Of a DNA stretch of 64,000 nucleotides, positions 16,644 through 52,085 are shown in pieces (the stretch's first letter is position 1; each line of letters begins with the position of its first letter). The stretch lies in IMG/VR virus record IMGVR_UViG_3300047561_000814, positions 40,478-104,477 of that record, one strand, 5' to 3'. The notes beneath the pieces are model-generated. The model was given only the letters and a program-made list of their open reading frames with translations. It made no database searches and was not told the origin of the DNA. Made by a program: the position numbers and the translations under genes. The DNA is from a virus (Duplodnaviria > Caudoviricetes).

Positions 16644-16717
16644 GCGGATATTGCATAGTGGTAGTGCGTAACCTTGCCAAGGTTAATGTGCGGGTCCGAT
16701 TCCCGCTATCCGCTCCA
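16644..16717 (+). tRNA. tRNA-Gly(GCC)
   Basis: Cloverleaf; anticodon arm taacc-ttGCCaa-ggtta; encoded CCA. Confidence 0.92.
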
Positions 16718-16718
16718 A

Positions 16719-16790
16719 GGCCCTATCTTCTAGTGGTCAGGATACCAGGCTTTCATCTTGGTGAGCAGAGTTCAATTCTCTGTAGGGCTA
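16719..16790 (+). tRNA. tRNA-Glu(TTC)
   Basis: Cloverleaf; ccagg-ctTTCat-cttgg; T-arm cagag-ttcaatt-ctctg. Confidence 0.9.
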
Positions 16791-16812
16791 CAAAATTCTG
16801 ATATAATAATAT

Positions 16813-25220: not shown

Positions 25221-25913
25221 ATGGATTTTGTATATATATGTAAAGATGGAATAAACGAAGAATTAAAGTATTCAATTAGATCTGTCGTTGAAAGTTTTCC
25301 AGAAGCAAACATATGGGTTGTTGGCGGTAAGCCTGATTGGTATGTAGGCAATTATATAAAAGTAGAACAAAAAGAATCAAAGTATAAAAATGCTGTAAAA
25401 AATTTAGAAACAATTTGTTTTTCACAAGAAATATCAAAATCTTTTATTTTAATGAATGATGACTTTTATATCATTAAAAAAATAAATAGAATAGAAAATT
25501 TTCATAGTGGCTTCTTATTAGATAAAATAAACTTATACCAAAAATTAAATGGCAACTCTCAGTACACCAGAAAACTTTCAGGAACATATAAGAAACTTAA
25601 AGCGTTAGAATTTGAGAACCCGCTAGACTATGAACTCCACGTTCCAATGATTATGGAAAAAGAAAAATTAAAGATAGTGTTAGAACTTTTAGATCAGTTT
25701 TTATGGAGATCTATATATGGAAACAAGTTTAATGTTGGTGGCACACAAATGGAAGACGTAAAGGTTTACAATTCTGGACCATTAGTTCTTAAGTCTTATA
25801 ATTTAAACATAGATGATCATACATATTTATCTAGTTCCGATAGTTCATTTAATAATATATTTAATAAAATACTTAAAGACAAGTTTAACAAAAAAACTAG
25901 ATTTGAGCAATAA
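25221..25913 (+). CDS. Stealth-like/glycosyltransferase-associated protein
   Basis: MDFVY, ELKYSIRSV, FILMNDDF, HVPM. Confidence 0.55.
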   Translation: MDFVYICKDGINEELKYSIRSVVESFPEANIWVVGGKPDWYVGNYIKVEQKESKYKNAVKNLETICFSQEISKSFILMNDDFYIIKKINRIENFHSGFLLDKINLYQKLNGNSQYTRKLSGTYKKLKALEFENPLDYELHVPMIMEKEKLKIVLELLDQFLWRSIYGNKFNVGGTQMEDVKVYNSGPLVLKSYNLNIDDHTYLSSSDSSFNNIFNKILKDKFNKKTRFEQ

Positions 25914-26934
25914 GTTCTAGGTATTTATCTTTTAATATTGTTGGAGAAAAGTTGTTAAACCCTAACTCGTAAGCCTGTTGTTTATAAATAGTTTTATCAT
26001 TGATAGACATGTACTTATCAATTGTTTGTGCTAACAAAACATTATTTGCTTCAACCAAATCAATTCTAACCTTTGTTCTAATGGTTCCAATGGAATCTGA
26101 GTCAACTAACCAATCTTGTGGCAAGATCTGGTTATTGGGTGAAACATTTGTCATAAAAACGGGGAGACCAGAAAGCAAAGCCTCATTCATTGGCAAACAC
26201 AGTCCTGCATATCGTCTAGGCAATACCATAGCATCAAAGCCATTGTATAGGTCTTCCCTGTTTTCTGGATTGCCAATTTCAATCTTTAGCCTTGAGTCTG
26301 TTACATTAGTTACTACTTCACTTTGACTTCTAATAACTAATTCATAATCAGCCTTAGAGTGTTTTAACATATTAATTACAGTTTCAGTACCGTTTCTATC
26401 TTTGGCTGCCTTCTTACCAGCAATGTGTAATAACCTATTATGTGATTTAGAAATGTTATTGTTTTTTACACTTGTAAATAACTCAGGACTGGTTGGTGGC
26501 GGAAGATGAATTACCTTTGTTCTATCTCCAAACATATTTTTAATTGTTTCAATTTGCCATAAACTAGGAGATAACAATACAGTTGGTAGCGGTAGTTCTG
26601 GGTTTGATAAATGACCAAACAGTTCATAGTTATACTGAAGAATAGTTTTTACGCCACGCCTATTTGCAAACCTTACAAAATTTTGATCATAAAAGGTTTC
26701 ACAACTCAAGACAACATCTACATCTCCTAAAAACATTTTTATCTGTTGAACAGATGGAAAACCTTGTGTCTTAATGCAACTATATTGGTCATACCAGTGT
26801 GGATGTTGCTTGTTGTTATTAAACGGGGTAGAGTCAATTAAAAGAATCTTATCAGGGTTAAGCATATTAACTAACTCTTTAGTCTGATTACCAAGGCCAG
26901 TATTGTCTGATCTTGCTATAATTCCTAGTCTCAT
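25897..26934 (-). CDS. GT-B (GT4-like) glycosyltransferase
   Basis: PRRYAGLCLPMNEALLSGLPV. Confidence 0.8.
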   Translation of the reverse strand: MRLGIIARSDNTGLGNQTKELVNMLNPDKILLIDSTPFNNNKQHPHWYDQYSCIKTQGFPSVQQIKMFLGDVDVVLSCETFYDQNFVRFANRRGVKTILQYNYELFGHLSNPELPLPTVLLSPSLWQIETIKNMFGDRTKVIHLPPPTSPELFTSVKNNNISKSHNRLLHIAGKKAAKDRNGTETVINMLKHSKADYELVIRSQSEVVTNVTDSRLKIEIGNPENREDLYNGFDAMVLPRRYAGLCLPMNEALLSGLPVFMTNVSPNNQILPQDWLVDSDSIGTIRTKVRIDLVEANNVLLAQTIDKYMSINDKTIYKQQAYELGFNNFSPTILKDKYLELIAQI

Positions 26935-27692
26935 TCTTTATACCCCCAGATTTCATCATCGGAAGTATATTTTCTTCCACCTTGGCGACCATCTAGATGA
27001 TAAGAACGCTTAATGCTTCCCTCTGGATGATAAATCCAAAGTTTATGCATTTCCCAATTTTCTTGATTAAATACTTCATATGGGAATATGTCATCTTGAA
27101 TTGCTCCATGAAATGTATCTTCTATAAAAAATTTATCTTTACATCTTGGTAGCACAATATCTTTGTAGTATTTTTTTCTACTTAAATGTGGGCGCTGACT
27201 CCATTGTATGGTTTTCATAAAGCCATCCTCTAAACCAAACATAAGGTGTTCATGCTCTTTTGGTATAAATGATTCATGGTGAAAACGAATAGTGTTTGCC
27301 TTATTGTATTCAAACATATCCAAACACTTGTCCCAGTCTATTGGTGTATCTGAAGTCAAAGGAGCATCTCCTTCAATATAAAGCAATAGCGGTGTTTTAA
27401 CTTCAGTAATTGTTTGACGCATCATATTGGTTTGATGACTATGTTCTTTAAATATAAAAGGTAGGATGTTCTTATCTTCATGCAAACATTTCCATAAAAT
27501 GCGATTTTTGTATTCATCGTAATCTTTTTTACGATTTTTTTGTTCTTCCCTAAGACCATCTATCTGCATAATAATTTCGTTGTCTGGAAAATGAACACGA
27601 ATATCACTAATGGTTTGATCTATCATTTTTGTGCTTGGGTGATCTGTAATTACAGAAGTAGCCATGACAATCGTTATATCCCTTTTATGCAT
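26931..27692 (-). CDS. GT-A-like glycosyltransferase
   Basis: IDG, LLYIEGD (DxD-like), HLDGR; operon context. Confidence 0.55.
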   Translation of the reverse strand: MHKRDITIVMATSVITDHPSTKMIDQTISDIRVHFPDNEIIMQIDGLREEQKNRKKDYDEYKNRILWKCLHEDKNILPFIFKEHSHQTNMMRQTITEVKTPLLLYIEGDAPLTSDTPIDWDKCLDMFEYNKANTIRFHHESFIPKEHEHLMFGLEDGFMKTIQWSQRPHLSRKKYYKDIVLPRCKDKFFIEDTFHGAIQDDIFPYEVFNQENWEMHKLWIYHPEGSIKRSYHLDGRQGGRKYTSDDEIWGYKE

Positions 27693-28548
27693 TTACTTGC
27701 CTCATTAACTCAATAAAAAGATCTCTTTTATATTTAATCCACCAACAAACAACTTGGTGCATTTCAGATATATAATTATTTAATAATTCAGGCAACAAAT
27801 CAGATAAAGTTTGCCAATTTTCAACAGTTTTTATTGAATGCTCACCCTGAAATAAAAAATTAAAAAAATCTGTACGTTGCATTTTTGAATCTAATTTGTC
27901 TCCTATTGGTAAACAAAGCATTTCAATTGCTTCATAAAATCTGAATGAATCAATAACCATTGCTCCGCTAGGACAAGGAACAATCTTTGATAAAAACATT
28001 TTATCGTAATATGATTTTGGACTTAAGCCTTCTGCAAAACCATTAGTTGGATTATAAAAAGAATTTGGTATATTAGGCATAACAATTGCAAGTTCTTGCC
28101 TTCTTTGATGTGTTATCTGTCCTGAAAAAAATGCATCATACGATTTATCTTGATACTCTGGTAAATTATTTGGTAAGTGTTGTGGAACACCTAATGCTAA
28201 CTTATTATATTGTGAATGTTTTCTGTGCGGGTATTGAATCCAAATTTCAATATTACTATGTTCTATCTTGTCAACTTTAAATGTGGCACTTTCATCTCCA
28301 GTAATAAATAAAACTACCCTGCTTATTTTATTTAACTCTTTGGATATTTGATCCTCATAATCTACATTTTGTGGTCCAGGAATAACAACAAAGGCTCTAT
28401 CTGTGTTAGGCAAGGTTGTTACCTTATCTGGTTTAATATTATTTTTATTAAAAAATTGTTTTAATAAGCCGTAATCCCATTTATCAGCAGCACAATCTTC
28501 TTTTTTAACTGAATAAAGATATGCGTTAATCATGTTAAAACCTTCCAT
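27685..28548 (-). CDS. exostosin/GT47-like glycosyltransferase
   Basis: FFSGQ..R, CPSG..DSFRFYEA. Confidence 0.6.
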   Translation of the reverse strand: MEGFNMINAYLYSVKKEDCAADKWDYGLLKQFFNKNNIKPDKVTTLPNTDRAFVVIPGPQNVDYEDQISKELNKISRVVLFITGDESATFKVDKIEHSNIEIWIQYPHRKHSQYNKLALGVPQHLPNNLPEYQDKSYDAFFSGQITHQRRQELAIVMPNIPNSFYNPTNGFAEGLSPKSYYDKMFLSKIVPCPSGAMVIDSFRFYEAIEMLCLPIGDKLDSKMQRTDFFNFLFQGEHSIKTVENWQTLSDLLPELLNNYISEMHQVVCWWIKYKRDLFIELMRQVNA

Positions 28549-29147
28549 AATTTTTCTTCTACAATAAGTTTACCAATTAAATCTTCGTCTATGTAAGATG
28601 GGTCATGTACATATGCTATCTGTGAGTTATATTTTTTGATTGCCTCAATTTTATGCTGTGTAAAATTAATTGGAATGTTTTCTAAAGTATGGACTAACTC
28701 AAACTGTTTTAATCTTTCTTTATGTAACTCTGGATGCGACATTCTATATGGCAATTCAGCATATATAAAGTATGTTTTATTAAAACTTTTCATTAAATTA
28801 AAGAGATTGTCTGATAAAAAAACATGGTCTGGATGATGAATACCCAATGGAATATATACATTATCAAAATTTACAATTATATTTTTTATCCAATCAATTA
28901 AAATATCTTCATTTTGTTTTCCATAGACATCATCTAATAAATCGCCATTAATAACCTCAGCATTTATCATGGCACAGGCTTCATCGTGCTCCTGTCTTAG
29001 TTTGATATGTTTCTTATATCCAACTTCATCTGTTGGTATTCCAGCAAATGCAGATGCAATAGTAAAAGAATCCTCATTGTCAATAATATGATCACCTAAT
29101 GAAAAGATTGCGTCATCTGTATGTGGACAAAATATTAAATTATTCAT
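28530..29147 (-). CDS. PIG-L/LmbE-family deacetylase
   Basis: PHTDD, R..E, HPDH, Y.SQ. Confidence 0.8.
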   Translation of the reverse strand: MNNLIFCPHTDDAIFSLGDHIIDNEDSFTIASAFAGIPTDEVGYKKHIKLRQEHDEACAMINAEVINGDLLDDVYGKQNEDILIDWIKNIIVNFDNVYIPLGIHHPDHVFLSDNLFNLMKSFNKTYFIYAELPYRMSHPELHKERLKQFELVHTLENIPINFTQHKIEAIKKYNSQIAYVHDPSYIDEDLIGKLIVEEKLWKVLT

Positions 29148-29847
29148 AAAATAAATGTACCTCATGTTGATAATCTAAAAGAGTTTCCTTATATCCTAAT
29201 CCTTTTATCCATTGTCTAAGATCATGTAATGCCTCATTCCACTGTTGCAACATAAATTCAGGGTGTCCAGATAACCAAATCTTAGGTTTATGCTCTCTAA
29301 GCACCCTCTCAGCCCCTCCTAGGACCCTCCATTCACTACCTTCTACGTCCAAAGAAATGGCGGTAGGTGGTTTAATACCGTGATCATATACACAAGAATC
29401 TATAGTAATCTGACCATAGGTTTCTCCTTCAAGGTATAGTTCTTTGAATCCGTGGGCTATTTCAATAACATCATTGACTTCTGGTGGCCATTCATTATAA
29501 TAAATACGTGAAAGACTGTTTATCTTATCAGATGCAAAGCCAGGTATACATACCATTGGAATTTTTAAGTTATTGGCAGACCAAGTTATAGGAAAATGTG
29601 ACCACACCTTGGGATTTGGTTCAAATAAAACTAATTCTGCGCCCCACATTTGACATAGTGCTGGAAACTCTCCTTCTTCTGCACCCACATAATAAACAAT
29701 ATCTCCATTACCAATATTTTTATGCATTGATTTTAGTCTTAATTTTTCCCATCCATGAGGCTGGTACCAATCTGGTCTATCTGCACGATGTTTTGGCAAG
29801 ATCATTTCAAACTCTCCGTTTAAAACTGCTTTGACCATCTCTGTCAT
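29140..29847 (-). CDS. FkbM-family methyltransferase
   Basis: VGAEEG, FEPNP, LDVEGSE..VL.GA. Confidence 0.82.
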   Translation of the reverse strand: MTEMVKAVLNGEFEMILPKHRADRPDWYQPHGWEKLRLKSMHKNIGNGDIVYYVGAEEGEFPALCQMWGAELVLFEPNPKVWSHFPITWSANNLKIPMVCIPGFASDKINSLSRIYYNEWPPEVNDVIEIAHGFKELYLEGETYGQITIDSCVYDHGIKPPTAISLDVEGSEWRVLGGAERVLREHKPKIWLSGHPEFMLQQWNEALHDLRQWIKGLGYKETLLDYQHEVHLFYE

Positions 29848-30392
29848 TTCATTGCCTCCATAAAATAAAATTCATGTTCTCTTGTATCAAGTTCATAAAT
29901 TTTTTCATTTGATAATACTGTTTCTTTATATTTTACTTTTGTTATATTTTTAAACCCAGAGTCGTGTAGTTTATACTCTAACGCTTTATCTGTTAGTAAT
30001 GATCTTGATGTTGAATACCACGTCAACCAAGCAGAAAAACGTCTATCTAAAATATCTTCAGAGTTGGGGAAAAAGTTAATGTTATTATTTTTATATGCAT
30101 CAAATCCAGAAACAATATCTGGCAAACTAATTCTAACGACACCGCCAGGCTTTAATACACGAATAAACTCTAGTAGTGTTGTTTTAATTTCAAGATAGGG
30201 TATTGCACATATTGTTGCATGTGAAACTATAATATCACATGAATTATCTGGAATTGAATGTAAATTTTTGTGTTCTGTTTTATATTCAGGATCAAGGTCT
30301 ATGTTTATCCAATCAAACGGCTGAATGCTACCACAACCAAAGTTTATGTTCATTGTTGTATCCAATCCATCAAAGATATTTTTGGAGTCCAT
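29844..30392 (-). CDS. SAM-dependent methyltransferase (Methyltransf_11-like)
   Basis: NFGCG, WINID, RVLKPGG. Confidence 0.8.
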   Translation of the reverse strand: MDSKNIFDGLDTTMNINFGCGSIQPFDWINIDLDPEYKTEHKNLHSIPDNSCDIIVSHATICAIPYLEIKTTLLEFIRVLKPGGVVRISLPDIVSGFDAYKNNNINFFPNSEDILDRRFSAWLTWYSTSRSLLTDKALEYKLHDSGFKNITKVKYKETVLSNEKIYELDTREHEFYFMEAMK

Positions 30393-31234
30393 CCAGTTAA
30401 ATCTTTAAACTTGGCATTAGATGCAAGAGTTTCTTGCACCTCACCAATTCTTGACGGTATAAATTTAACATCATTTGAAATGATATTAGCAATATCAAGT
30501 ATAGAGTAATTACTTCCATACCCAATGTTATATACTTCACCAAATCCATTTTCAACCTCAGATGCAAGAATGTTTGCTTGTATTACGTCTGATATGTGAG
30601 TAAAATCTCTACGCTGAGATCCATCTCCAACTACTGTTAGTGGCTTTGATTCATGATATTGTTTTAAAAATAACCCTATTACTGGTGCATACTGTCCTTT
30701 TAATGGTTGTCTATCTCCATAAACATTAAAATATCTAAGAGATATAGTCTTTAATCCGTAAAGGTTGTAATAAACTCTTGCAAGGTTTTCACCAAAAACT
30801 TTAGCAGCAGAGTATGGAGTTAATGGATCAGGCGACTGTGTTTCTTGGTTTGGAAGCAAAGCCTTTTTCCCATAGGAAGAAGATGTGCTTGAATAGATTA
30901 GCCTATTTACCTTGTTAACCCTACAAAGTTCAAGAACATTGGCTGTTCCTACTGCGTTTGATTGAATAGATTTTTTAGGATTTAATATTGCTGGCTGTAT
31001 TCTTGCATCAGATGCTACGTGAAACACGCAGTCAACATCTTTAAAGAGTGGTGCAATTAAGTCATAGTCACAAATATCATACTTATAGTTTTGTGCTTTA
31101 TCATTCCAATAGAATTGCTCATGACATTCTGCAGACTCATCATCAATACAAATAACATTGTGACCAAGACTAATTAACTTATCAACAAGGTTTGATCCAA
31201 TAAAACCAGCACCACCAGTAACTAAATATTTCAT
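30350..31234 (-). CDS. NAD-dependent nucleotide-sugar epimerase/dehydratase
   Basis: VTGGAGFIGS, YSAAK, LRYFNVYG, RDFTH. Confidence 0.92.
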   Translation of the reverse strand: MKYLVTGGAGFIGSNLVDKLISLGHNVICIDDESAECHEQFYWNDKAQNYKYDICDYDLIAPLFKDVDCVFHVASDARIQPAILNPKKSIQSNAVGTANVLELCRVNKVNRLIYSSTSSSYGKKALLPNQETQSPDPLTPYSAAKVFGENLARVYYNLYGLKTISLRYFNVYGDRQPLKGQYAPVIGLFLKQYHESKPLTVVGDGSQRRDFTHISDVIQANILASEVENGFGEVYNIGYGSNYSILDIANIISNDVKFIPSRIGEVQETLASNAKFKDLTGWTPKISLMDWIQQ

Positions 31235-32190
31235 TTTATATTTAAGGTTTCTAATATGCTTGCCCATCTATGAACATAGGTGTGTTCTTGTTTAGTTCTT
31301 TCATGACCATTAAATCTAATTTGCTCCCGTTCAAGATTAACATTAAGATAGTGATCTATCTTATTTTTTAGATCTTCAAGATTACCGTGTTCATAGAATA
31401 CAATATCATTACCATCTTCAAAGTATTCTTCAAGTCCTGTAATGCGAGGGTAAATAGTAAAACCACCACGACCAGTACTCTCAAACAACCTATCACTAGT
31501 ATAGTAAGGATAGTTAAAGTTAATGTTTAAACTATCACCTATTGCTATCTTGCTTTTTGCATAGATACGATTAAGCGCTTCTCCACGTACAGTTCCAGTG
31601 TCACCATCTCCACCAACATGTAGGAATCTTTTACCGTATGTGTTTCTTAAAAAGTCTATTAATTCTGGACGGTATTTATGTTCATGATGATAACCTTTAC
31701 TACCAACAAAGATTATGTCATGCTCAAAGTTGTCTGGATCATAATCTTGATGTAGATAACACTCTTTATCATATACACCAGCAGGTAAGAAGTGTCCTCT
31801 AACTTCTGTATTTTCATTAAACCAATCACACATTAACTTATCTGTAGCAAAAAAGTGACCTATACTCGTGTAGAAATCATCATTCTTTAAATCTTTTTCA
31901 CGCTCAATTCCAAACCACAAATCCAAGTGATAAGTCATAGTTGGTATGCCAGCAGACTTTAATTCTTTTAGTACATCAGTCATAGATCTAGATCCTGGAG
32001 TCTGCCATCTATGTGTGTGTACCCAGATGAATAGATCAGAGTTTAATGATTTGTTTAATATTTCTGTGCTACCTGCTTTTTTTTCTTGCAGTTTTTGCAC
32101 GGTATGCCCAAGAGATTCCAAAGACTTAGCATGATGATTCTCACTACTATAAGGCACTTCAAAGTTGCCAAGAAAAACTATGTTAGCCAT
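31231..32190 (-). CDS. CgeB/Glyco_trans_1_2-like glycosyltransferase
   Basis: DIIFVGS, SDRLFES.G.G, HTY.HR. Confidence 0.8.
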   Translation of the reverse strand: MANIVFLGNFEVPYSSENHHAKSLESLGHTVQKLQEKKAGSTEILNKSLNSDLFIWVHTHRWQTPGSRSMTDVLKELKSAGIPTMTYHLDLWFGIEREKDLKNDDFYTSIGHFFATDKLMCDWFNENTEVRGHFLPAGVYDKECYLHQDYDPDNFEHDIIFVGSKGYHHEHKYRPELIDFLRNTYGKRFLHVGGDGDTGTVRGEALNRIYAKSKIAIGDSLNINFNYPYYTSDRLFESTGRGGFTIYPRITGLEEYFEDGNDIVFYEHGNLEDLKNKIDHYLNVNLEREQIRFNGHERTKQEHTYVHRWASILETLNIK

Positions 32191-32416
32191 TTATTTGTTC
32201 GTTTTCCCCTCTAGCAATAGCAGCAGATGCCTCAAAGGCTTTTTGTGTTCTACGAGATTTCAATAAACCTTTTGACTTCCAAAGTGGGATGGTTGCTTCA
32301 ATGTCTTTGGCTATCTGTTCTCTTATTTCTTTAACAGTAAAAACAACAAAGTTCCAGACATCTTCTTTTTGTTTGTCGTTAAGTTCTTCAGTCCAGTTAG
32401 TCATCTTCTTCCTCAA
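32183..32416 (-). CDS. hypothetical protein
   Basis: ORF overlapping the GT start. Confidence 0.5.
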   Translation of the reverse strand: MRKKMTNWTEELNDKQKEDVWNFVVFTVKEIREQIAKDIEATIPLWKSKGLLKSRRTQKAFEASAAIARGENEQING

Positions 32417-32519
32417 ATTCTCTTAAAGCATTGACATTTTTAAGACAGTTGTAACAATCTTTATTTATTAGTCTTTCCCCACAATATTCACAGAACATAT
32501 GTATATCATATCATGCGTG

Positions 32520-32590
32520 TAGGACTGGAAGGTAACGCTCCTTCTTCTCAGGATTAAAAGTCCTGAGCATCACTTTAATGCTTCAATCCC
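32520..32590 (-). tRNA. tRNA-Lys(TTT), atypical T-loop
   Basis: cagga-ctTTTaa-tcctg; T-arm gaagg-agcgtta-ccttc. Confidence 0.75.
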
Positions 32591-32594
32591 ATAG

Positions 32595-32667
32595 TACCCA
32601 CAGTTGGATTTGAACCAACGCTTTGTGAATTTTAAGTCCACTGCCTCTACCGCTGGGCTATATGGGT
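32595..32667 (-). tRNA. tRNA-Leu(TAA), short variable loop
   Basis: gtgga-ctTAAaa-ttcac; T-loop ttcaaat. Confidence 0.82.
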
Positions 32668-32670
32668 TTG

Positions 32671-32743
32671 CTGGTCTGGTAGGACTCGGACCTACGACTT
32701 GCGAATTAACAGTTCGCCACTCTACCAACTGAGTTACAGACCA
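32671..32743 (-). tRNA. tRNA-Asn(GTT)
   Basis: gcgaa-ctGTTaa-ttcgc. Confidence 0.9.
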
Positions 32744-32747
32744 AGAG

Positions 32748-32821
32748 TACACTAGGTAGGACTTGAACCTACGATATCCGAATTATGAGTTCGGGGCCTT
32801 AACCAACTTGGCTACTAGTGT
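32748..32821 (-). tRNA. tRNA(CAT): Met or Ile2
   Basis: ccgaa-ctCATaa-ttcgg; T-loop ttcaagt. Confidence 0.88.
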
Positions 32822-32848
32822 CTGCTGTGGTTTTTATACCTTTATGTA

Positions 32849-33247
32849 TTATTTTTCTATAGACTTACACAGTTTATCAAAATTGGTAACTGAAGAAATT
32901 TTTAAATTCATTGCAACAGTAATTGTTTCAAAATTTTTATCAGTTATTGCAATTTTTGTATTTTTTTCTGCTGTAATCCAAGAGGCAATAGTTGTTTTAA
33001 TTTTACCAGTTGTCGTTTTTTGTTTTGCAGTAAGCATTTTTATATTTAAATCTATTTCTTTTAACACATCTTGATCACTTGCTAAACCATTAGCCCAACT
33101 AGCAATCACCTTTGACTCATAACTTGTTTTAATAGTTTTACATGAAGATTTATTGCCTTTGGTATTTAATGATGTTATTGCAGCCTGTGCAGGTGCGTTT
33201 GAGATTAATAATGCAATTAATAAAGAAGTTGTAATTATTTTTTTCAT
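32849..33247 (-). CDS. secreted hypothetical protein
   Basis: Signal peptide ending AQA. Confidence 0.6.
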   Translation of the reverse strand: MKKIITTSLLIALLISNAPAQAAITSLNTKGNKSSCKTIKTSYESKVIASWANGLASDQDVLKEIDLNIKMLTAKQKTTTGKIKTTIASWITAEKNTKIAITDKNFETITVAMNLKISSVTNFDKLCKSIEK

Positions 33248-33261
33248 ATTATAAGTTTATC

Positions 33262-33453
33262 CTATTCAGATTGTTTTGTAAAGTTCTGACTATCTTTAAT
33301 AACTGGATCAAGTCTATTCCAATGACCTGCAGAACTTCCTTGATATATTTCTCCAGTTTGCCTATCTATAAGCAACCATTTATCTGGGCATTTAGTATGA
33401 ACGACTAAATCAACAGGTTTGTTAAATTCTTCAAACTCTTTTATTTTTTTCAT
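33262..33453 (-). CDS. hypothetical protein
   Basis: ORF; HTKCPDKWLLIDR motif. Confidence 0.55.
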   Translation of the reverse strand: MKKIKEFEEFNKPVDLVVHTKCPDKWLLIDRQTGEIYQGSSAGHWNRLDPVIKDSQNFTKQSE

Positions 33454-33615
33454 TTATGCTCTTTCATGTGATTGTATAAAGTTTCATACGCCATTGCTGA
33501 TCTTACCTGTATTTCTTCACTACATATCTCACAAATAACAACCCTGTTGGCCGACATATATACCAAGTATATCAAAATTTGAGCAGTATGTCAAGATAGG
33601 GTATAATAGAGTAAT

Positions 33616-33954
33616 ATGAGATTTAAACTTAAAGGTATAATCTGGGGACAATCTGCATTAATCGTAATACTTCTTTTGTCTTTGCTTTTTGTAGGGGGAG
33701 ATTTAAAACAGGCTCGTAAAATGACTCTTGACCAAAGCAATTATTGTATAAAATATACCAGTGATATTATTGCAAGCAGCCGTCTTGATTTGATAAGAGA
33801 ACAAGATGACCATGCAAGAACGGTAGACAAAGCAAACTCCGTAATAGATGACATTGTTAATAGATATAACTCACTTGTGGCACGGTATAACAAAACCACT
33901 AATGGAACCAACTACGACCCACTTAACACATACTCATATAGGATAAGACCTTGA
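33616..33954 (+). CDS. membrane-anchored coiled-coil protein
   Basis: Divergent gene with TATAAT upstream. Confidence 0.55.
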   Translation: MRFKLKGIIWGQSALIVILLLSLLFVGGDLKQARKMTLDQSNYCIKYTSDIIASSRLDLIREQDDHARTVDKANSVIDDIVNRYNSLVARYNKTTNGTNYDPLNTYSYRIRP

Positions 33955-33955
33955 C

Positions 33956-34138
33956 ATGTGTCCGCATTGCAATAATAAATTAATCCCACTATTATATGGT
34001 TTTGTAGATCCTGAATATGTGGATATGCATAAACAAGGTTTGGTATTCTTGGTATCAACTACCTATCATACAAAAAATAGTCCTACTTCATATTGTAAAA
34101 AATGTGAAAAAAGTTTTGATATCAAAGTAAAATATTAA
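33956..34138 (+). CDS. small zinc-ribbon protein
   Basis: CPHC..YG..CKKC. Confidence 0.55.
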   Translation: MCPHCNNKLIPLLYGFVDPEYVDMHKQGLVFLVSTTYHTKNSPTSYCKKCEKSFDIKVKY

Positions 34139-34140
34139 TC

Positions 34141-34860
34141 TTAATTACTTTGTTTTTTTATTTTACCCTCTTCCAAAGAAGACCAATACAAATTATAATA
34201 ATTTATATCGTAAGCAAATCTTTTCATATGTGGGACATAGGCGCCAGAATGAACGTGTAACTTTATTCCAGCCTTTTTTAAATTTCTAAAAAATGCAATA
34301 TCTTCACCAACAAAACTTTCTGTATTGTGAGCCTTTTCCGCAAATAAAGAATAGTCAGGAGAAATTTTTCTTAATGGATCAATTATTGATTTATGCATTA
34401 AAACAAACCCAAAGCCTGCGTAATCAACAACAATGACTTTATCGTTTGGAATATCGTTTACAACTTGAATTAAAAATTCATCTTCTGTTTCATTAAAAAT
34501 AACTGGCATAGGTTCCATTAATGAATGTTCGCTTTGTTTAGATATAAAATATAATCCAGATATTACTGGAACAGAGACTTTATCTGCAGAATTCCATAAT
34601 TTTTTAAAAATTTCTGGCGCTATAACTATATCGGAATCAACCCATAGAACCCAATCAGACTTTATTGTATCTGCCCAAACATCAAAAGCAACCTGTCTTT
34701 GTCTTGCAATTTGATTTCCATGGACTCTTAAACTAGAAACATTTTTAATTCCAACTGATTCCATTGCTAAGATAGTTTTTATAACTCCATCCATAAATAA
34801 TCCGTCAACACTACCATTGTCACACCAAACTATTGTTAAAGATTCATCTTTAGCATGCAT
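34141..34860 (-). CDS. GT2-like glycosyltransferase
   Basis: LWVDSD, AGFGFVL, GEDIAF. Confidence 0.75.
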   Translation of the reverse strand: MHAKDESLTIVWCDNGSVDGLFMDGVIKTILAMESVGIKNVSSLRVHGNQIARQRQVAFDVWADTIKSDWVLWVDSDIVIAPEIFKKLWNSADKVSVPVISGLYFISKQSEHSLMEPMPVIFNETEDEFLIQVVNDIPNDKVIVVDYAGFGFVLMHKSIIDPLRKISPDYSLFAEKAHNTESFVGEDIAFFRNLKKAGIKLHVHSGAYVPHMKRFAYDINYYNLYWSSLEEGKIKKQSN

Positions 34861-35727: not shown

Positions 35728-36057
35728 TTAATGAAAACTATCCCCACAGGCGCATGAGCCTTGTGCATTAGGATTATCTATTGTAAAACCTTGCTTTTCT
35801 ATAGTGTCTACAAAATCTAAGTTTGACCCTTGTAGGTATGGATCTGACATTCTATCCAATCTAAGATCAAAGCCTTCAAACTTATAGATTACATCGCCTT
35901 CTTTTTCTTCATAATCAAAATAGGTTTGATATCTAAGTCCTGAACATCCTCCAGGAGAAACCGACACTCTTAAAAATTGTGGTCGTCCAGGAGTTGAAAT
36001 TTGAGACTCTGTAATTAGTTCGGCAACTTTTTTAATTGCATCTTTAGTTAGTATCAT
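35728..36057 (-). CDS. HesB/IscA/ErpA Fe-S cluster carrier
   Basis: GGCSG..NPNAQGSCACGDSF. Confidence 0.92.
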   Translation of the reverse strand: MILTKDAIKKVAELITESQISTPGRPQFLRVSVSPGGCSGLRYQTYFDYEEKEGDVIYKFEGFDLRLDRMSDPYLQGSNLDFVDTIEKQGFTIDNPNAQGSCACGDSFH

Positions 36058-36273
36058 TAAAGTTTAGAAACAATGTTGGATGCCATCTTAAGGCCCTTGA
36101 CTACACCATCATGATAGTCTTGATTCTTCATTACTTTAGCAGTATCCCAAATGCGATAAGAGGCTTTGTCTAATATCTCTGCTATTTCTTTTTTTAGCAT
36201 TATGTCGTCTAGGCTCATACATCCATCATACCAAATTTTGGCAGTAAAGTCAAGGCAAAAAATATAATCAATC

Positions 36274-42202: not shown

Positions 42203-42322
42203 GTATTAATTATCCTACAAACTGGGAAAAATGTCAAGTATCCGTAATGAGAAAATGGGAAAAATATCATTTCAACGTAATAAGATTATAACAAAAATGT
42301 TATCAAACTCGGGGCCCCTTTG

Positions 42323-42396
42323 CGGCTCTGATGGGACTTGAACCCACGATCTCTACCGTGACAGGGTAGCGCATTAACCAACTATGCTACAGAACC
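42323..42396 (-). tRNA. tRNA-Asp(GTC)
   Basis: ctacc-ctGTCac-ggtag; T-loop ttcaagt. Confidence 0.92.
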
Positions 42397-47644: not shown

Positions 47645-47718
47645 TGTGATCTTAACCACATAATGGCCCTGTGGATAACCCTGTGGAAAACGCCCCGAGG
47701 ATTTTAGAACAAATGTTC
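47645..47718. promoter_or_regulatory. cluster of CRP-like, DnaA and LexA-like boxes
   Basis: TGTGAtcttaaCCACA 47645-60; TGTGGATAA 47670-78; TGTGGAAAA 47682-90; GAACaaatGTTC 47707-18. Confidence 0.6.
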
Positions 47719-48996: not shown

Positions 48997-49018
48997 AGTC
49001 TACCAAAATTATCAGACA
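48997..49018 (-). promoter_or_regulatory. promoter with PafBC/RecA-NDp-type motif
   Basis: TGTCTG-ataattttgg-TAGACT. Confidence 0.65.
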
Positions 49019-49279
49019 TTTACAACCTACTAGCCAGTAATCTTAAATAGTGAGACGCTCAGCGGTGTGATATGCCCCACAAAATTTCTGTGATCTTAAA
49101 CACATTGTCCTTAAAGCGACACGCCGTCTGCGCCGAGTCAACTCGGGTTTTTTATTTCAATTTATCTTTATGTTTTATTTTTCTTGAATACTTTTTTTTA
49201 TTTGGAATTGGTGTCGCAGCATTACTACGACGCAATTCTTGAATACGAATTATTTTATTTTTTATTTCTTTTAACATTT

Positions 49280-49471
49280 TTATTCCCCTCTACTTTCTGC
49301 ATCTGCTTCCCAATCAGAAAGCCAAACACGATAAGCAATTGGGTCGCAGTTAAATAAAATTTCACTAGCAGTAAATGTTAAATAACCAATCTTTGTGTCT
49401 GGATAACACTCGTCAAGCATTTGATCAAATTCTTCTTTGATTTCTAATTCTTTTTCAAATTCTGATTTCAT
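49280..49471 (-). CDS. small early protein
   Basis: FDQMLDECY..DPIAYR motif. Confidence 0.65.
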   Translation of the reverse strand: MKSEFEKELEIKEEFDQMLDECYPDTKIGYLTFTASEILFNCDPIAYRVWLSDWEADAESRGE

Positions 49472-49671
49472 TTATTTACTCCCAACAATTTGAGCAAGTA
49501 ATTATATCTTGCTCATCAAATAAATCGCTAGAAACTTTGTTATCGCATAAGCGACAATTAAGAGTTATCATTTATATTCTCCTTTTAAGATAAGTTCATC
49601 TAGCATTTTTGCTAGAGGGTCTTGATTTTCATCAAGGTAGTTATTTAATTCTAACTGTTTAACAAAGTCTA

Positions 49672-49854
49672 TCATTTAGACACTTTCCAATCTGACCACA
49701 TAGATAGTCTTTCTGGGTCAGTATCGTTATACCAACGCTCAATATTATTTTCGCAAATTTCACAAAAAGTGAATTGCTCATCATTAACGTCTGAGATAGC
49801 AGACTTATTTGGAACGTGTGATTTACACACTTGGATTATTACATTTGAATTCAT
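49672..49854 (-). CDS. small early protein
   Basis: aaagga RBS; CxxH/CxxC. Confidence 0.6.
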   Translation of the reverse strand: MNSNVIIQVCKSHVPNKSAISDVNDEQFTFCEICENNIERWYNDTDPERLSMWSDWKVSK

Positions 49855-49904
49855 TTGAATTCCTTTCTAGTTTGAGAACCTTTCTCAACTTTCTTTATAC
49901 TAGA

Positions 49905-49926
49905 AGTATAGCAGGGGGGTCTGACA
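49905..49926 (-). promoter_or_regulatory. promoter with PafBC/RecA-NDp-type motif
   Basis: TGTCAG-acccccctgc-TATACT. Confidence 0.72.
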
Positions 49927-49966
49927 TTTACTCACCAGTAAGTAGGACAAAATGGACATTGTGTCT

Positions 49967-50032
49967 TGTGATGTAGGTCATGTGGATAACTTACGCTCAA
50001 AATTCAATGTGATGTGCGTCATGTGGATAACT
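49967..50032. repeat. 25-bp direct repeat: CRP-like box overlapping a DnaA box
   Basis: tgtgatgtaggtcaTGTGGATAAct (49967-91) and tgtgatgtgcgtcaTGTGGATAAct (50008-32). Confidence 0.7.
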
Positions 50033-50138
50033 GATCACGAGGTCGGGCGTGTCGGTCCCCGAGTCAATGTCCGATTTGCACCATTTGTCATGTGGTGCAT
50101 ATCACTAATTACATGCGTGTTATTCACGGCGTGTCGTC

Positions 50139-50167
50139 TTGACTTTTAGGCTTATCTCTGCTATAAT
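50139..50167 (+). promoter_or_regulatory. near-consensus sigma-A promoter
   Basis: TTGACT-17-TATAAT with an extended TG; GGCGTGTC just upstream. Confidence 0.8.
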
Positions 50168-50194
50168 TCCATTATACAAAAAAATAAAGAAGCA

Positions 50195-50326
50195 GACTCA
50201 ATGAGCCTAGCGATTAAGCCTCTACAAGAGGATGAGCCTAGCAAATAAGTGAGTCAGAGATTAGATAGCCTCAATGAGCCTACCAAATAAGCCTAGCAAT
50301 AGGATGAGCGTAGCAATTAAGTGAGG
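50195..50326 (+). ncRNA. candidate structured ncRNA with four 18-nt motifs
   Basis: ATGAGCCTAGCAAATAAG-like at 50201, 50232, 50274 and 50304, enclosed by covarying stems. Confidence 0.6.
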
Positions 50327-50363
50327 TATCTCACACCACGACACTAGAGGAAAGTCCCCAAAA

Positions 50364-50385
50364 TGTCAGCGGTATCTGGTAAGAT
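50364..50385 (+). promoter_or_regulatory. promoter with PafBC/RecA-NDp-type motif
   Basis: TGTCAG-cggtatctgg-TAAGAT. Confidence 0.7.
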
Positions 50386-50443
50386 ACTAGTATCAAGGTT
50401 AATCAAGGTGATTAACTTAGTAAAAGAAAGGTTAGGTCTAAAA

Positions 50444-50605
50444 ATGACTAACACTATATATAACGAAATCGCTGATGAGTTTGGCTCATCTGCTCTATCT
50501 ATTAACTATCCTGAGCCTGAGATTAGTATTACTCGTGCTGCTCAGTTGTTAAATCAAATGGGTTTTGACAATGCTAAAGCCTATCTATTAGCAGGGGGTC
50601 GCTAA
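50444..50605 (+). CDS. small early protein
   Basis: Start moved to MTNTIY; aaagg RBS. Confidence 0.55.
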   Translation: MTNTIYNEIADEFGSSALSINYPEPEISITRAAQLLNQMGFDNAKAYLLAGGR

Positions 50606-50789
50606 TGACTACCTCCAACATAGATAAGATTAACGAAGCCATAGAGGCTTTACAAAATGCTAACAAGGCGTTAGTAGAAATGTTTGGAGAGGATAAAGAC
50701 TAATGCTAACAGTATTACTAATTATCTCTACACTATCTTTTATCACAATGATATTTGGTATCGCACTAACTAACGAAGGAGTACTATAA

Positions 50790-50948
50790 ATGAAAATCAC
50801 TTACACAATTTGGCAGGGTAGCCTAAACAAAGGCAGACTAACTGCTAAGACCATGAAAGAGATCATCGCCCTAATTGATGAACTAAACGGAGGCAAGCCT
50901 ACTCTAAAATTTGAGTATCTTGTCCATAAGATTGAGCAGGTAGCATAG
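50790..50948 (+). CDS. 52-aa early protein (below cutoff)
   Basis: MKITYTIWQG..; aaggag RBS. Confidence 0.55.
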   Translation: MKITYTIWQGSLNKGRLTAKTMKEIIALIDELNGGKPTLKFEYLVHKIEQVA

Positions 50949-51116
50949 TGAACCTAGAACTATTATTTGACAGAGAATATTTTTCTCTATACATCAATGG
51001 CTTATGGCCTAACGGAGTCGCTATTGAAATTCCTACATGGTTACTAATTGGCTCTATTGCTTTTATTTATTCTATTCATCTAATTAGAAAAGATAAAGAA
51101 GAGGCATAGGCTGTTA

Positions 51117-51160
51117 GGGGCACACTATCCAGAGTGGTGTGCTCACTATTTTTTTTATTT
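51117..51160 (+). terminator. intrinsic terminator
   Basis: gggcacacta..tggtgtgctc followed by a T-run. Confidence 0.7.
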
Positions 51161-52085
51161 TTTATTTTTAAAATTACATATCATACATCTAAGAAAAATA
51201 TTCAGATTTTCTCAAAATGAAAATTTTTTCAGATTTAGGCGGGTATAGAAATATTTGCTGGATTAAGTTCTGGATAAGTAGTAAAGAAATCTACCTGTAT
51301 TTCCTGTATTGCCCACTTGCTTATGTATGTTAAAATCATTGCTGTTATAAAAAGTCTAAAGATATATTTGCTAAGGGGCATGCTGATAGTATATAATATT
51401 ATTATGTGCCAACACGTATATAAATACACAAATCCTGGGCTATGCCGATATTGTGGTTTGGACACCCACGATACAGATTGGGCTAAACAAAATAAACTAT
51501 ACGCAGAGTACAGGGAAAAAGTTGGATTCTTCTTCAACAATAATGCCTGGTGGTCAATCTAGCCAAAATATGGTAAGATAGATATATGTACTTACTAGGA
51601 CTAGAAATTCGCAAAGACCGTAGAGAAAAACAATACTCTATGAAGACTTGTTTTGGCTGTAACAAAATAATGTGGGTAGCCCAAGAAAACATAAGAGTCT
51701 ATAACTATTGCGGTAGTTGCAAATGAAACAACAAATCCTAATCTCTATCATCATAATTGGTTTGGCAGCACTGGTATGGCTATTCTAGACAACCTTGAAG
51801 ACTCTATGGCAGATGACGACGGTATGCCAAGTCAAAAAGTTACAGATGCTATCAAAGAAATGCTTGAAGATCCAGAGCACCATAAACTCATGGAACGATT
51901 AAAATACATGGAGGACCATGGAGTCTAAATATCCTATACCACCTTACAGACATACTCCAAAAGGTTTGAACATAATAAATGAAACAACTAAATCAACAAA
52001 GTGTTGTGATGCCTGTGAATGTGGTAATTCTGAAGAAGAAAAGTTTAATAAACTTATGGAGACTCAGTCATCATTTGAAGAGTAG

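What the first reader, a model, noticed from the sequence alone, without database searches (positions are those of the whole stretch)
50139..50335. Promoter-driven candidate ncRNA displaying one 18-nt motif four times in symmetric internal loops
Seen: after TTGACT-17-TATAAT there is no ORF, only two units of the same design. Unit 1 is GACUCA-[AUGAGCCUAGCGAUUAAG]-CCUC uacaa GAGG-[AUGAGCCUAGCAAAUAAG]-UGAGUC. Unit 2 is CCUCA-[AUGAGCCUACCAAAUAAG]-CCUA gcaa UAGG-[AUGAGCGUAGCAAUUAAG]-UGAGG. The stems differ in sequence but keep pairing (one has a GNRA loop), while the loop motif is conserved. It is the first rightward transcript from the divergence point. Inferred: a multivalent sponge for a host protein or ligand (CsrB-like logic), possibly anti-defence.
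Basis: partly seen in the sequence, partly recalled or inferred. Interest (0 to 1): 0.8.

Follow-up and report, generated by a model that had tools for sequence, protein, structure and literature searches.

The report
Conserved twofold-symmetric phage leader RNA
A lineage of uncultured freshwater phages begins an early transcript with a highly conserved, mirror-symmetric RNA hairpin that matches no catalogued RNA family and probably serves as a docking site for an unknown factor.

Summary
A near-consensus promoter (50139-50167) is followed by two hairpin units (50195-50255, 50269-50326) that carry four copies of one 18-mer. These are the only four copies in the 104-kb phage genome.

The units are a real, widespread structured element. 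I found them in 84 of 106 motif-seeded viral contigs, in at least 118 metagenome contigs, and in 32 of 33 protein-seeded relatives. The outer and inner stems covary strongly.

The "symmetric internal loops" need revising. The two 18-mers pair with each other through a palindromic CUAG helix, shown by a G-C/C-G swap and by paired 1-bp insertions. Each unit is therefore a rod with two identical 5x7 internal loops (UGAGC / CAAAUAA) placed back to back. The loop signature resembles the UAA/GAN (GNRA-like) motif.

Units lie 18-46 nt after a promoter's -10 element. Complete genomes carry 1-3 units, all in the early control region near DnaA boxes. No terminator separates the units from the downstream genes, so this is a leader rather than a free 150-nt RNA.

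No Rfam family matches, and no match turned up among 50,697 GenBank phage records. The function is inferred only. My best guess is a factor-recruitment site on early transcripts, similar to nut or put. A decoy or sponge remains a live rival. DNA operators are unlikely.

The parts
50139..50167 (+). Sigma-70-type promoter, TTGACT-17-TATAAT, with TG before the -10 element. The start site is inferred near 50174.
   Evidence: (11 of 12 matches). The same promoter type precedes units in 69 of 102 distinct contexts. The start site itself is not mapped.
50168..50194 (+). A-rich leader between the promoter and unit 1. Relatives carry a similar AAWTAAATAR stretch here.
   Evidence: contexts printed.
50195..50255 (+). 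Unit 1. P1 pairs 50195-50200 with 50250-55. The 18-mers lie at 50201-18 and 50232-49. P2 pairs CUAG 50207-10 with CUAG 50238-41. The P3 hairpin is 50219-31.
   Evidence: R1 covariance model, 79.3 bits, E 1.9e-18. Covariation.
50256..50268 (+). Linker between the two units.
50269..50326 (+). Unit 2. P1 pairs 50269-73 with 50322-26. The 18-mers lie at 50274-91 and 50304-21. P2 pairs CUAC 50280-83 with GUAG 50310-13, which is the compensatory variant. The P3 hairpin is 50292-50303 with a GCAA loop.
   Evidence: R1, 71.7 bits, E 2e-16. The C/G swap is always paired, in 10 of 10 rows that carry it.
50360..50385 (+). Second promoter-like element, with no -35 box: AAAATGTCAG-N7-TGG-TAAGAT. It lies between the units and the first gene.
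   Evidence: Pattern scan. The same box precedes units in 20 of 102 contexts and follows many others. Promoter function is inferred.
50444..50605 (+). First gene of the rightward early operon (53 aa, no known family).
   Evidence: Relatives carry at least four different first genes at this position.
51118..51160 (+). Intrinsic terminator ending the rightward early operon of about 1 kb: an 11-bp stem followed by a long T run.
   Evidence: It is the only + strand terminator-like site between the promoter and 51200.
49981..50030 (+). Two perfect TGTGGATAA 9-mers (DnaA-box complement, identified from memory) at 49981-89 and 50022-30, upstream of the promoter.
   Evidence: These boxes occur at 0.586 per kb within 500 nt of units against 0.231 per kb elsewhere in the same loci.
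50091..50136 (+). Upstream promoter elements: the palindrome TGTGG-N6-TCACT (50091-50106) and the 11-mer ACGGCGTGTCG (50126-36).
   Evidence: Both recur upstream of the -35 box in relatives.
49871..49889 (-). Hairpin in the leftward leader, GUUGAGA-loop-UCUCAA. It is homologous to the P1 stem of units in L013, L089 and L097 but lacks the 48-nt core.
   Evidence: (z = -2.35).

Best explanation
The two units form a structured RNA leader transcribed rightward from the strong early promoter at 50139-50167.

Each unit folds into a rod: P1, then an internal loop, then a 4-bp palindromic helix P2 (CUAG/CUAG), then a second internal loop, then the P3 hairpin. The two loops are identical (5'-UGAGC / 5'-CAAAUAA, each closed by an A-G purine pair) and sit back to back, so the rod has approximate twofold symmetry. 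This much is shown by comparative data.

The following is inferred. The loops are docking sites for two copies of a factor, or for a dimer. The factor binds the nascent early transcript just after promoter escape. It then acts in cis on that transcription unit, as lambda nut or HK022 put sites do, changing elongation or termination (for example at the terminator 51118-51160) or the fate of the early mRNA.
For: Structure:
- Across 75 distinct units, 82.5% of cells are paired against 56.2% in shuffles, and the covariation score is 0.577 against 0.134 (0 of 500 shuffles reach it). Slid controls reach at most 0.126.
- An independent metagenome set of 100 distinct rows repeats this: 82.5% against 58.3%, and 0.513 against 0.124.
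- P2 is never unpaired in 83 distinct rows. It shows a G-C to C-G swap in 9 rows and paired 1-bp insertions in 12 rows (11 CUAAG/CUUAG, 1 in the reverse order).
- The closing positions swap between G.A (55) and A.G (19).

Position and orientation:
- 87 of 102 distinct contexts have a sense promoter-like pattern within 130 nt upstream. The -10 element ends 18-46 nt before the first 18-mer in 81 of these.
- Only 5 of 102 have an antisense-directed promoter-like pattern.

The element is a leader, not a free RNA:
- No + strand terminator-like site lies between 50168 and 51118.
- Relatives have start codons 15-60 nt after the unit.

A nut-like layout:
- Five complete or near-complete relatives (92-100% by CheckV) carry only 1-3 units each, all in one control region. 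One of them has units on both divergent transcripts (G002: 999-1072 on the - strand, 2475-2545 on the + strand). L074 and L078 show the same arrangement.

Conservation:
- 32 of 33 relatives found through a neighbouring protein, with the region covered, have a unit at the syntenic site.

Loop signature:
- UAAG/UGAG matches the published UAA/GAN signature, described there as a GNRA-like internal loop (passages of PMC2615604).
Against: - No binding factor was identified. Twenty early ORFs hit no family of known function. Two conserved early proteins gave no significant match to any solved fold, RNA-binding folds included.
- The first gene behind the unit differs among relatives.
- A second, unit-less promoter often lies between the unit and the gene. 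The genes therefore do not depend on the unit-bearing transcript, which fits a trans-acting RNA equally well.
- Several units in series (5 units behind 3 promoters in L087) exceed what one loading site would need.
- Folding energies are unremarkable (z from -0.1 to -1.8).
- Wobble statistics do not settle which strand folds. A strict count gives 8 G-U against 4 A-C. A naive count gives 15 against 62, but that count is contaminated by helix ends.
- Contigs from RNA libraries cover the units but also the promoter, so DNA carry-over is possible.
- Antitermination itself is untested.
Confidence: 0.35

Rival explanations
1. Trans-acting decoy or sponge. The leader RNA, or a fragment processed from it, is itself the product. 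Its two to ten identical loop modules would titrate a host factor very early in infection, either an RNA-binding or defence protein or a nucleotide signal.
For: - Multivalency: 4 modules here, and up to 10 18-mers in 5 units behind 3 tandem promoters with no ORF between them (L087).
- The promoter is near-consensus.
- The unit is conserved in 32 of 33 relatives, whereas the first downstream gene belongs to at least four different families.
- A second promoter between the units and the gene makes the unit-bearing transcript dispensable for gene expression.
Against: - No terminator-like site or recognisable processing site follows the units.
- Many units lie directly before a ribosome-binding site.
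- Most complete genomes carry only 1-3 units, a low valency compared with known protein sponges.
- No target is known.
Confidence: 0.25
2. Recognition or processing site for an endoribonuclease. One option is a dimeric enzyme centred on the twofold axis at P2. Another is a phage RNA that mimics the substrate or antitoxin of a host abortive-infection RNase.
For: - The approximate twofold symmetry about the CUAG helix suits a homodimeric enzyme.
- Each 18-mer exposes an invariant A-rich strand.
- The position between promoters and genes recalls processing sites in the early regions of other phages (from memory).
Against: - Nested variants place two modules in the same orientation (L021:2650-2698), which breaks the symmetry.
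- The element is not a tandem array of identical whole repeats, and no toxin gene lies nearby.
- Rfam antitoxin families do not match.
- No cleavage data exist.
Confidence: 0.1
3. Ligand-sensing RNA: a pair of identical aptamer pockets in one rod that senses a metabolite or signalling nucleotide and adjusts early expression.
For: Near-invariant loop nucleotides are framed by freely covarying helices (24 invariant columns in 75 units). The element sits in a 5' leader. From memory, pseudo-symmetric riboswitches that bind two ligands are known.
Against: - No expression platform is apparent. No terminator-like site follows the units in the window. In the contexts I read by eye I saw no alternative pairing that would hide the ribosome-binding site; this was not counted.
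- The distance to the start codon varies from 15 to about 250 nt.
- The downstream genes are unrelated small proteins.
Confidence: 0.08
4. DNA-level element. The 18-mers would be iterons or operators for a DNA-binding protein beside the DnaA boxes, or hairpins extruded in single-stranded DNA at a transcription-activated origin.
For: - There are four direct repeats about 170-320 bp from two perfect DnaA-box 9-mers.
- The boxes are 2.5-fold enriched near units.
- Wobble counts do not prove that the folded molecule is RNA.
Against: - Repeat spacing varies among the 74 distinct units, whose inner segments run from 7 to 18 nt, so there is no helical phasing.
- The segments between and around the repeats are constrained to pair.
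- The two copies in a unit differ in a complementary way (CUAC with GUAG, CUAAG with CUUAG). A protein reading identical duplex sites would not select for this.
- Orientation follows the promoters: 87 of 102 sense against 5 of 102 antisense.
- Single-stranded DNA hairpins cannot be excluded by comparison alone.
Confidence: 0.05

Closest known systems
Lambda-type nut sites (boxA/boxB, bound by N) and HK022 put RNAs. Their properties are given from memory.
   Same: These are cis-acting RNA elements placed shortly after early promoters, one on each divergent early operon. They present a GNRA-like fold and load a factor onto the transcription complex. Here the layout is similar: 1-3 units per genome, on both divergent transcripts in G002, L074 and L078.
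   Different: There is no sequence or structural similarity. The unit is a 60-74-nt rod with two 5x7 internal loops, not a short hairpin with a pentaloop. No boxA and no N-like gene were recognised. Antitermination was not tested.
RAT antiterminator hairpins bound by dimeric BglG/LicT-type proteins (from memory).
   Same: A leader hairpin whose two internal loops are related by approximate twofold symmetry and are read by a protein dimer.
   Different: The sequence is different. The RAT element competes with a terminator, and no such terminator is present here. No PRD-type protein is known in these phages.
CsrB/RsmZ-type protein sponges (from memory).
   Same: One short motif is repeated in a highly expressed RNA.
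   Different: Here the motif lies in internal loops, pairs with its twin, and occurs only 2-10 times. The RNA has no terminator of its own, and no GGA-type loop motif is present.
UAA/GAN internal-loop motif of rRNAs, introns and riboswitches (PMC2615604, passages read).
   Same: The loop strands contain UAAG opposite UGAG, matching the published signature ccUAAg/uGAagg. That motif is described as a GNRA-like internal loop that makes A-minor contacts.
   Different: The helix does not directly abut the UAA and GAN triplets. There are extra invariant nucleotides (C6, and C11 to A14). The three-dimensional fold was not tested.
Iteron-type origins (from memory).
   Same: Direct repeats of about 18 bp lie next to DnaA boxes.
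   Different: The spacing is variable, the flanks must pair, and the copies differ in a complementary way.

Membership tests
Any Rfam 15 family | A covariance-model match at or near the family's gathering score | tested here: not met
   In window 49000-51500 at E up to 10, the only match overlapping the units is a spurious hit to a mammalian lncRNA model (17.4 bits against a gathering score of 80). Four other loci holding units gave no hit on the units at E up to 1.
Lambda-type nut site | Promoter-proximal position on early operons, including both divergent transcripts | tested here: met
   87 of 102 contexts; G002; L074, L078.
Lambda-type nut site | A short boxB hairpin with a GNRA-like pentaloop, preceded by boxA (definition from memory) | tested here: not met
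   The units are 60-74-nt rods with two internal loops. P3 loops vary and are not conserved. No shared boxA-like block was recognised other than an A-rich leader.
Lambda-type nut site | A cognate N-like protein and read-through of downstream terminators | not testable with these tools
   Twenty early ORFs have no annotated family. A terminator exists at 51118-51160, but read-through cannot be measured here.
CsrB-like sponge RNA | A stand-alone small RNA with its own terminator | tested here: not met
   No + strand terminator-like site lies between 50168 and 51118.
CsrB-like sponge RNA | Many copies of one exposed binding motif | tested here: inconclusive
   There are 4 copies here and 2-10 in relatives. 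The copies pair with each other.
UAA/GAN internal loop motif | The sequence signature UAAg opposite uGAN | tested here: met
   Strand b ends in UAA plus position 18, which is G in most copies. Strand a is UGAGC in 162 of 164 copies. The signature is taken from PMC2615604.
UAA/GAN internal loop motif | Helix pairs directly flanking UAA and GAN, and the tertiary fold | tested here: not met
   Extra invariant nucleotides separate the triplets from P2. The three-dimensional fold cannot be tested here.
Iteron/operator DNA repeats | Equivalent copies with regular phasing and no need for the flanks to pair | tested here: not met
   Inner segments of 7-18 nt give variable spacing. P1 and P3 covary. 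The copies differ in a complementary way.
Type III antitoxin RNA (ToxI-like) | A tandem array of identical whole repeats next to a toxin gene (definition from memory) | tested here: not met
   Only the 18-mers repeat, and the intervening segments differ. The neighbouring ORFs are small proteins of no known family.
Riboswitch | An expression platform and a consistent class of downstream gene | tested here: not met
   There is no terminator. The distance to the start codon varies. At least four unrelated first genes occur.

The most novel reading that the evidence does not exclude
The units are an RNA-only counter-defence or takeover gene. On this reading they form a multivalent early RNA whose identical GNRA-like loop pockets sequester a host factor in trans. 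The factor could be a defence or RNA-metabolism protein, or a nucleotide second messenger. This would be an RNA equivalent of the protein sponges that phages use against bacterial immunity.
Probability: 0.15. Interest if true: 0.9.

Novelty: new variant of a known kind. Interest (0 to 1): 0.7.

Why it matters
This is a well-supported new structured RNA class. I collected 207 distinct units, and the helices covary in two independently gathered sets. It sits in an early control region of a widespread lineage of uncultured freshwater phages. It is conserved better than the protein genes around it, yet it matches nothing in Rfam and no match turned up among the GenBank phage records.

The architecture is unusual and compact enough for structural and biochemical work. 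One internal-loop module is used singly, nested, tripled or, most often, back to back around a palindromic helix.

Finding the partner would show how these phages control, or exploit, the first minutes of infection. If the partner is a host factor, the RNA is also a potential tool for probing that factor.

Tried and rejected
- Rfam: no family matches.
- BLAST of the 601-nt region and of one unit against 50,697 GenBank phage records: only chance matches of 20-23 nt. This search has little power for 18-mers.
- Pattern scan of 185,579 species genomes. Only 4 of the 120 loci hold units. All four are short contigs (1.1-9.7 kb) of MAGs labelled Gammaproteobacteria, Proteobacteria, Rhodobacteraceae and Bacteroidia. 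I take these to be mis-binned phage fragments, so no host can be inferred.
- Folding energy is not informative. The three-module variant is not recovered by the MFE fold.
- Strand from wobble pairs is inconclusive. The naive count of 15 G-U against 62 A-C is dominated by helix ends next to the A-rich leader. The strict count is 8 against 4.
- Coding: the inner segments are 7-18 nt long, so no reading frame is kept.
- Partner hunt. PHROGs on 20 early ORFs found only families of unknown function. Pfam on 10 larger ORFs found sugar-modification enzymes. AlphaFold models of two conserved early proteins (pLDDT 82 and 85) gave no PDB match below E 0.26. The top hits were AcrIF9, phage T4 Dmd, Nudix domains and EF-P domain I, all non-significant.
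- Sequencing runs. Contigs from four metatranscriptome runs cover the units and run on to 50425, but they also cover the promoter. They are contigs, so they show no transcript ends. Parts of the stretch had no cover.
- The 10-nt identity between the motif and the start of ORF 36057-36218 has a chance expectation of about 0.12 and was dropped.
- Hammerhead, K-turn, loop E, box C/D, TIGR and CRISPR-repeat resemblances were considered from memory and dropped, because their defining letters or layout are absent.
- Literature. Searches found no description of this motif. They were not specific enough to show that it is unpublished. PMC10690425 (passages read) lists 8,495 unnamed candidate RNAs from IMG/VR in supplements that I could not open, and the motif may be among them. 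Passages of bioRxiv 10.64898/2026.10.21.760802 do not mention it.

Full report
**1. What is in the window**

TTGACT (50139-44), a 17-nt spacer and TATAAT (50162-67) form the best promoter-like site in 49300-51200. The site scores 11 of 12 with a TG extension. The number of such sites in that region, 9, is not above the shuffled expectation of 7.2.

An A-rich leader follows, and then two units.
- Unit 1: GACTCA / 18-mer 50201-18 / CCTCTACAAGAGG / 18-mer 50232-49 / TGAGTC.
- Unit 2: CCTCA / 18-mer 50274-91 / CCTAGCAATAGG / 18-mer 50304-21 / TGAGG.

The 18-mer occurs four times at up to 3 mismatches, all on the + strand. The chance expectation is 0.13, and 0 of 100 shuffles reached 4. It occurs nowhere else in the window's own genome, a 104,477-bp IMG/VR virus record estimated to be 96% complete. 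No + strand ORF of 30 aa or more lies between 50150 and 50362. Folding energy is unremarkable at z = -1.50.

**2. The element is widespread**

An exact scan of IMG/VR for the 18-mer with two free positions returned 106 loci.
- 84 of the 106 hold at least one full unit, meaning two 18-mers less than 60 nt apart.
- The other 22 hold no full unit by this test. They are chance single hits inside coding sequence or units cut off by a contig end.

In total I collected 207 distinct units with their flanks.

Nothing comparable appeared in 50,697 GenBank phage records, although BLAST has little power for 18-mers. Nothing matched in Rfam 15. In 185,579 species genomes, only four short contigs of MAGs with inconsistent labels hold units. 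I take these to be mis-binned phage fragments.

**3. Structure**

I aligned 75 distinct units and tested a three-helix model.
- 82.5% of cells form standard pairs, against 56.2% in shuffles (0 of 500 shuffles reach the observed value).
- The covariation score is 0.577 against 0.134 (0 of 500). Sliding the partners by 1-3 columns gives at most 0.126.
- All 8 P1 pairs and all 4 P3 pairs show changes on both sides.

A covariance model built from this alignment (R1) found 154 matches in 100 of the viral loci. It found 116 matches in 100 of the 118 metagenome loci. That second, independently seeded set repeats the result on 100 distinct rows: 82.5% against 58.3% paired, and covariation 0.513 against 0.124.

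They are not free loops. Positions 7-10 (CUAG) of the 5' copy pair with positions 7-10 of the 3' copy. This helix, P2, is paired in every one of 83 distinct rows.

P2 varies in a compensatory way in three forms:
- CUAC paired with GUAG, as in the window's unit 2 (9 rows; 10 of 75).
- CUAAG paired with CUUAG (11 rows).
- CUUAG paired with CUAAG (1 row, L038).

Position 1 of one copy and position 18 of the other form a purine-purine pair that swaps orientation (82 units). At the inner closing the counts are G.A 55 and A.G 19. At the outer closing they are A.G 65 and G.A 4.

What remains is a 5x7 internal loop, 5'-UGAGC (162 of 164 copies) opposite 5'-CAAAUAA, with positions 12 and 14 variable. 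Each unit presents this loop twice, back to back around P2. The rod therefore has approximate twofold symmetry.

The loop is the true building block, because it also occurs in other arrangements:
- Nested twice in the same orientation (L021:2650-2698 and its likes).
- As a third, outer module around a standard unit (for example L008:11817-11884).
- As a single 18-mer closing a hairpin (L073:2213-2250).

Its UAAG/UGAG letters match the published signature of the UAA/GAN motif, described as a GNRA-like internal loop. Extra invariant nucleotides separate it from the helix, so I call this a resemblance and not membership (passages of PMC2615604).

**4. Where it sits**

In 87 of 102 distinct contexts, a promoter-like pattern in the sense orientation lies within 130 nt upstream.
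- 69 contexts have the TTGACW-N16-18-TANNNT type.
- 20 contexts have a second type without a -35 box, AAAATGTCAG-N7-TGnTAnnnT.
- In 81 contexts the -10 element ends 18-46 nt before the first 18-mer.
- In 6 contexts the distance is 106 nt, for a second unit in a series.
- Only 5 of 102 contexts have a promoter-like pattern directed antisense.

A few units follow a gene end with no recognisable promoter (L034:3458, L064:3393, L047:180, L050:6296).

Start codons lie 15 to about 250 nt downstream. In the window, no + strand terminator-like site occurs until the strong terminator at 51118-51160. The element is therefore a leader of the rightward early operon, not a free RNA of about 150 nt, unless it is later processed.

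Five complete or near-complete relatives (92-100% by CheckV) hold only 1-3 units each, all in one control region. In G002 the units lie on both divergent transcripts.

I also seeded a search with a neighbouring conserved protein rather than with the motif. Among those relatives, 32 of the 33 whose locus covers the region have a unit at the syntenic place. The exception is the most distant one, at 54% identity. Four further loci do not reach the region.

The first gene behind the unit belongs to at least four unrelated families in 21 such loci. The RNA is therefore better conserved than what it precedes.

In the window's own leftward leader, the P1 stem of a relative's unit survives as a plain hairpin without the 48-nt core.

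**5. Expression**

Four metatranscriptome runs hold contigs from relatives that cover the units. Examples are X17 at 50178-50366 and X18 at 50202-50425, the latter running on into the downstream region. Other contigs cover the promoter itself. Because these are contigs they show no transcript ends, so DNA carry-over cannot be excluded. This is weak support only.

**6. Mechanism**

Shown:
- A folded single strand with three covarying helices.
- Two near-invariant loops per unit.
- A promoter-proximal position in the sense orientation.
- 1-3 units per genome in the early control region.
- Near-universal conservation in the lineage.

Inferred: the loops are docking sites, and the element acts on the early transcripts.

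I favour a recruitment site that works in cis, like nut or put, or that otherwise controls transcript fate (confidence about 0.35). The reasons are the promoter-proximal position, the occurrence on both divergent operons, the GNRA-like loops and the strong terminator downstream.

The decoy or sponge reading is nearly as good (about 0.25). Units stack up behind tandem promoters with no ORF between them (L087 has 5 units and 3 promoters). A second promoter often separates the unit from the gene. The unit also outlasts its downstream genes.

The other rivals score lower:
- An RNase target or mimic, about 0.1.
- A ligand sensor, about 0.08.
- A DNA-level role, about 0.05.

The DNA-level reading is unlikely for three reasons. 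The spacing is irregular. The flanks must pair. The two copies in a unit diverge in a complementary way. Hairpins in single-stranded DNA cannot be excluded by comparison alone, and wobble counts do not decide the strand.

No partner was identified.

**7. Novelty**

The motif matches no Rfam family, and my searches found no paper that describes it. An automated catalogue of 8,495 candidate RNAs from IMG/VR (PMC10690425, passages read) may list it in supplements that I could not open.

As an architecture it is new. As a kind of element, a structured phage leader or regulatory RNA, it is a new variant.

Noticed in passing
window 50091-50136; also about 41335, 45501, 48508, 49081 and 49117: Early promoters share an upstream architecture. 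A palindrome like TGTGA-N6-TCACA (CRP-like, recalled from memory) is followed by the 11-mer CGACACGCCGT in either orientation, just before the -35 box. In relatives, the apparent hairpin after a unit (GTGACCTAAATCACA) is this palindrome belonging to the next promoter.
   Followed up: partly
window 50360-50385 (+), 49929-49905 (-), about 43504 (-): A second promoter-like class lacks a -35 box. It has a conserved AAAATGTCAG box about 10 nt upstream of an extended -10 element and is often preceded by a GC-rich hairpin. It recalls activator-dependent middle promoters. Only 3 copies fit the strict pattern in the 104-kb genome.
   Followed up: partly
window 50162-50176 (TATAAT-TCC-ATTATA) and 49910-49896 on the - strand: The -10 hexamer is followed, after about 3 nt, by its own reverse complement. 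This was perfect in 65 promoter-like sites across the loci, against 4 in a reversed-sequence control. Because only half of the repeat would be transcribed, this looks like a DNA-level feature of the promoters.
   Followed up: partly
window 49981-49989, 50022-50030, 47670-47678; related loci: Perfect DnaA-box 9-mers occur at 0.23 per kb across these early regions, about 30 times the chance rate by my estimate. They reach 0.59 per kb within 500 nt of units. This may mark an origin, or regulation or titration by DnaA.
   Followed up: partly
window 49871-49889 (- strand): The leftward leader carries a plain hairpin that is homologous to the P1 stem of units in L013, L089 and L097. The 48-nt core is present in those relatives and absent here, so it behaves as a clean insertion or deletion.
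   Followed up: yes
window about 50424-50452 and many relatives (for example L005, L028): The first early genes start with AUGACU. The sequence just after the ribosome-binding site is complementary to the start codon region and covaries with it, forming small hairpins that bury the start codon (read).
   Followed up: no
window 25893-25924 (+): At the convergent junction of two gene blocks, a hairpin CUAGAU / UUGAGC-AAUAAG / UUCUAG joins the two loop strands directly. The R1 model scores it 17.4 bits, E 0.05. It may be a minimal one-module form or a chance match.
   Followed up: no
window 36057-36253 (- strand): A promoter-like site is followed within about 6 nt by an ORF (36057-36218) that starts ATGAGCCTAG, the first 10 letters of the motif. 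It may be a leaderless mRNA. The chance expectation of the 10-mer match is about 0.12.
   Followed up: partly
window 25897-34860 (- strand); tRNAs at 16644-16791, 32519-32821 and 42322-42396: There is a cluster of sugar-modification genes: glycosyltransferases, an NAD-dependent epimerase/dehydratase, an FkbM methyltransferase and a weak match to PIG-L deacetylase. The window also holds seven tRNA genes.
   Followed up: no
window 7282-9066: The large terminase is about 53% identical to those of 130-kb Streptomyces phages, although the window has only 30-40% G+C. The host is unknown.
   Followed up: no
L142, L149, L200, L213 (genome contigs): Unit-bearing contigs of 1.1-9.7 kb sit in MAGs labelled Gammaproteobacteria, Proteobacteria, Rhodobacteraceae and Bacteroidia. 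They are probably phage fragments that were mis-binned.
   Followed up: partly
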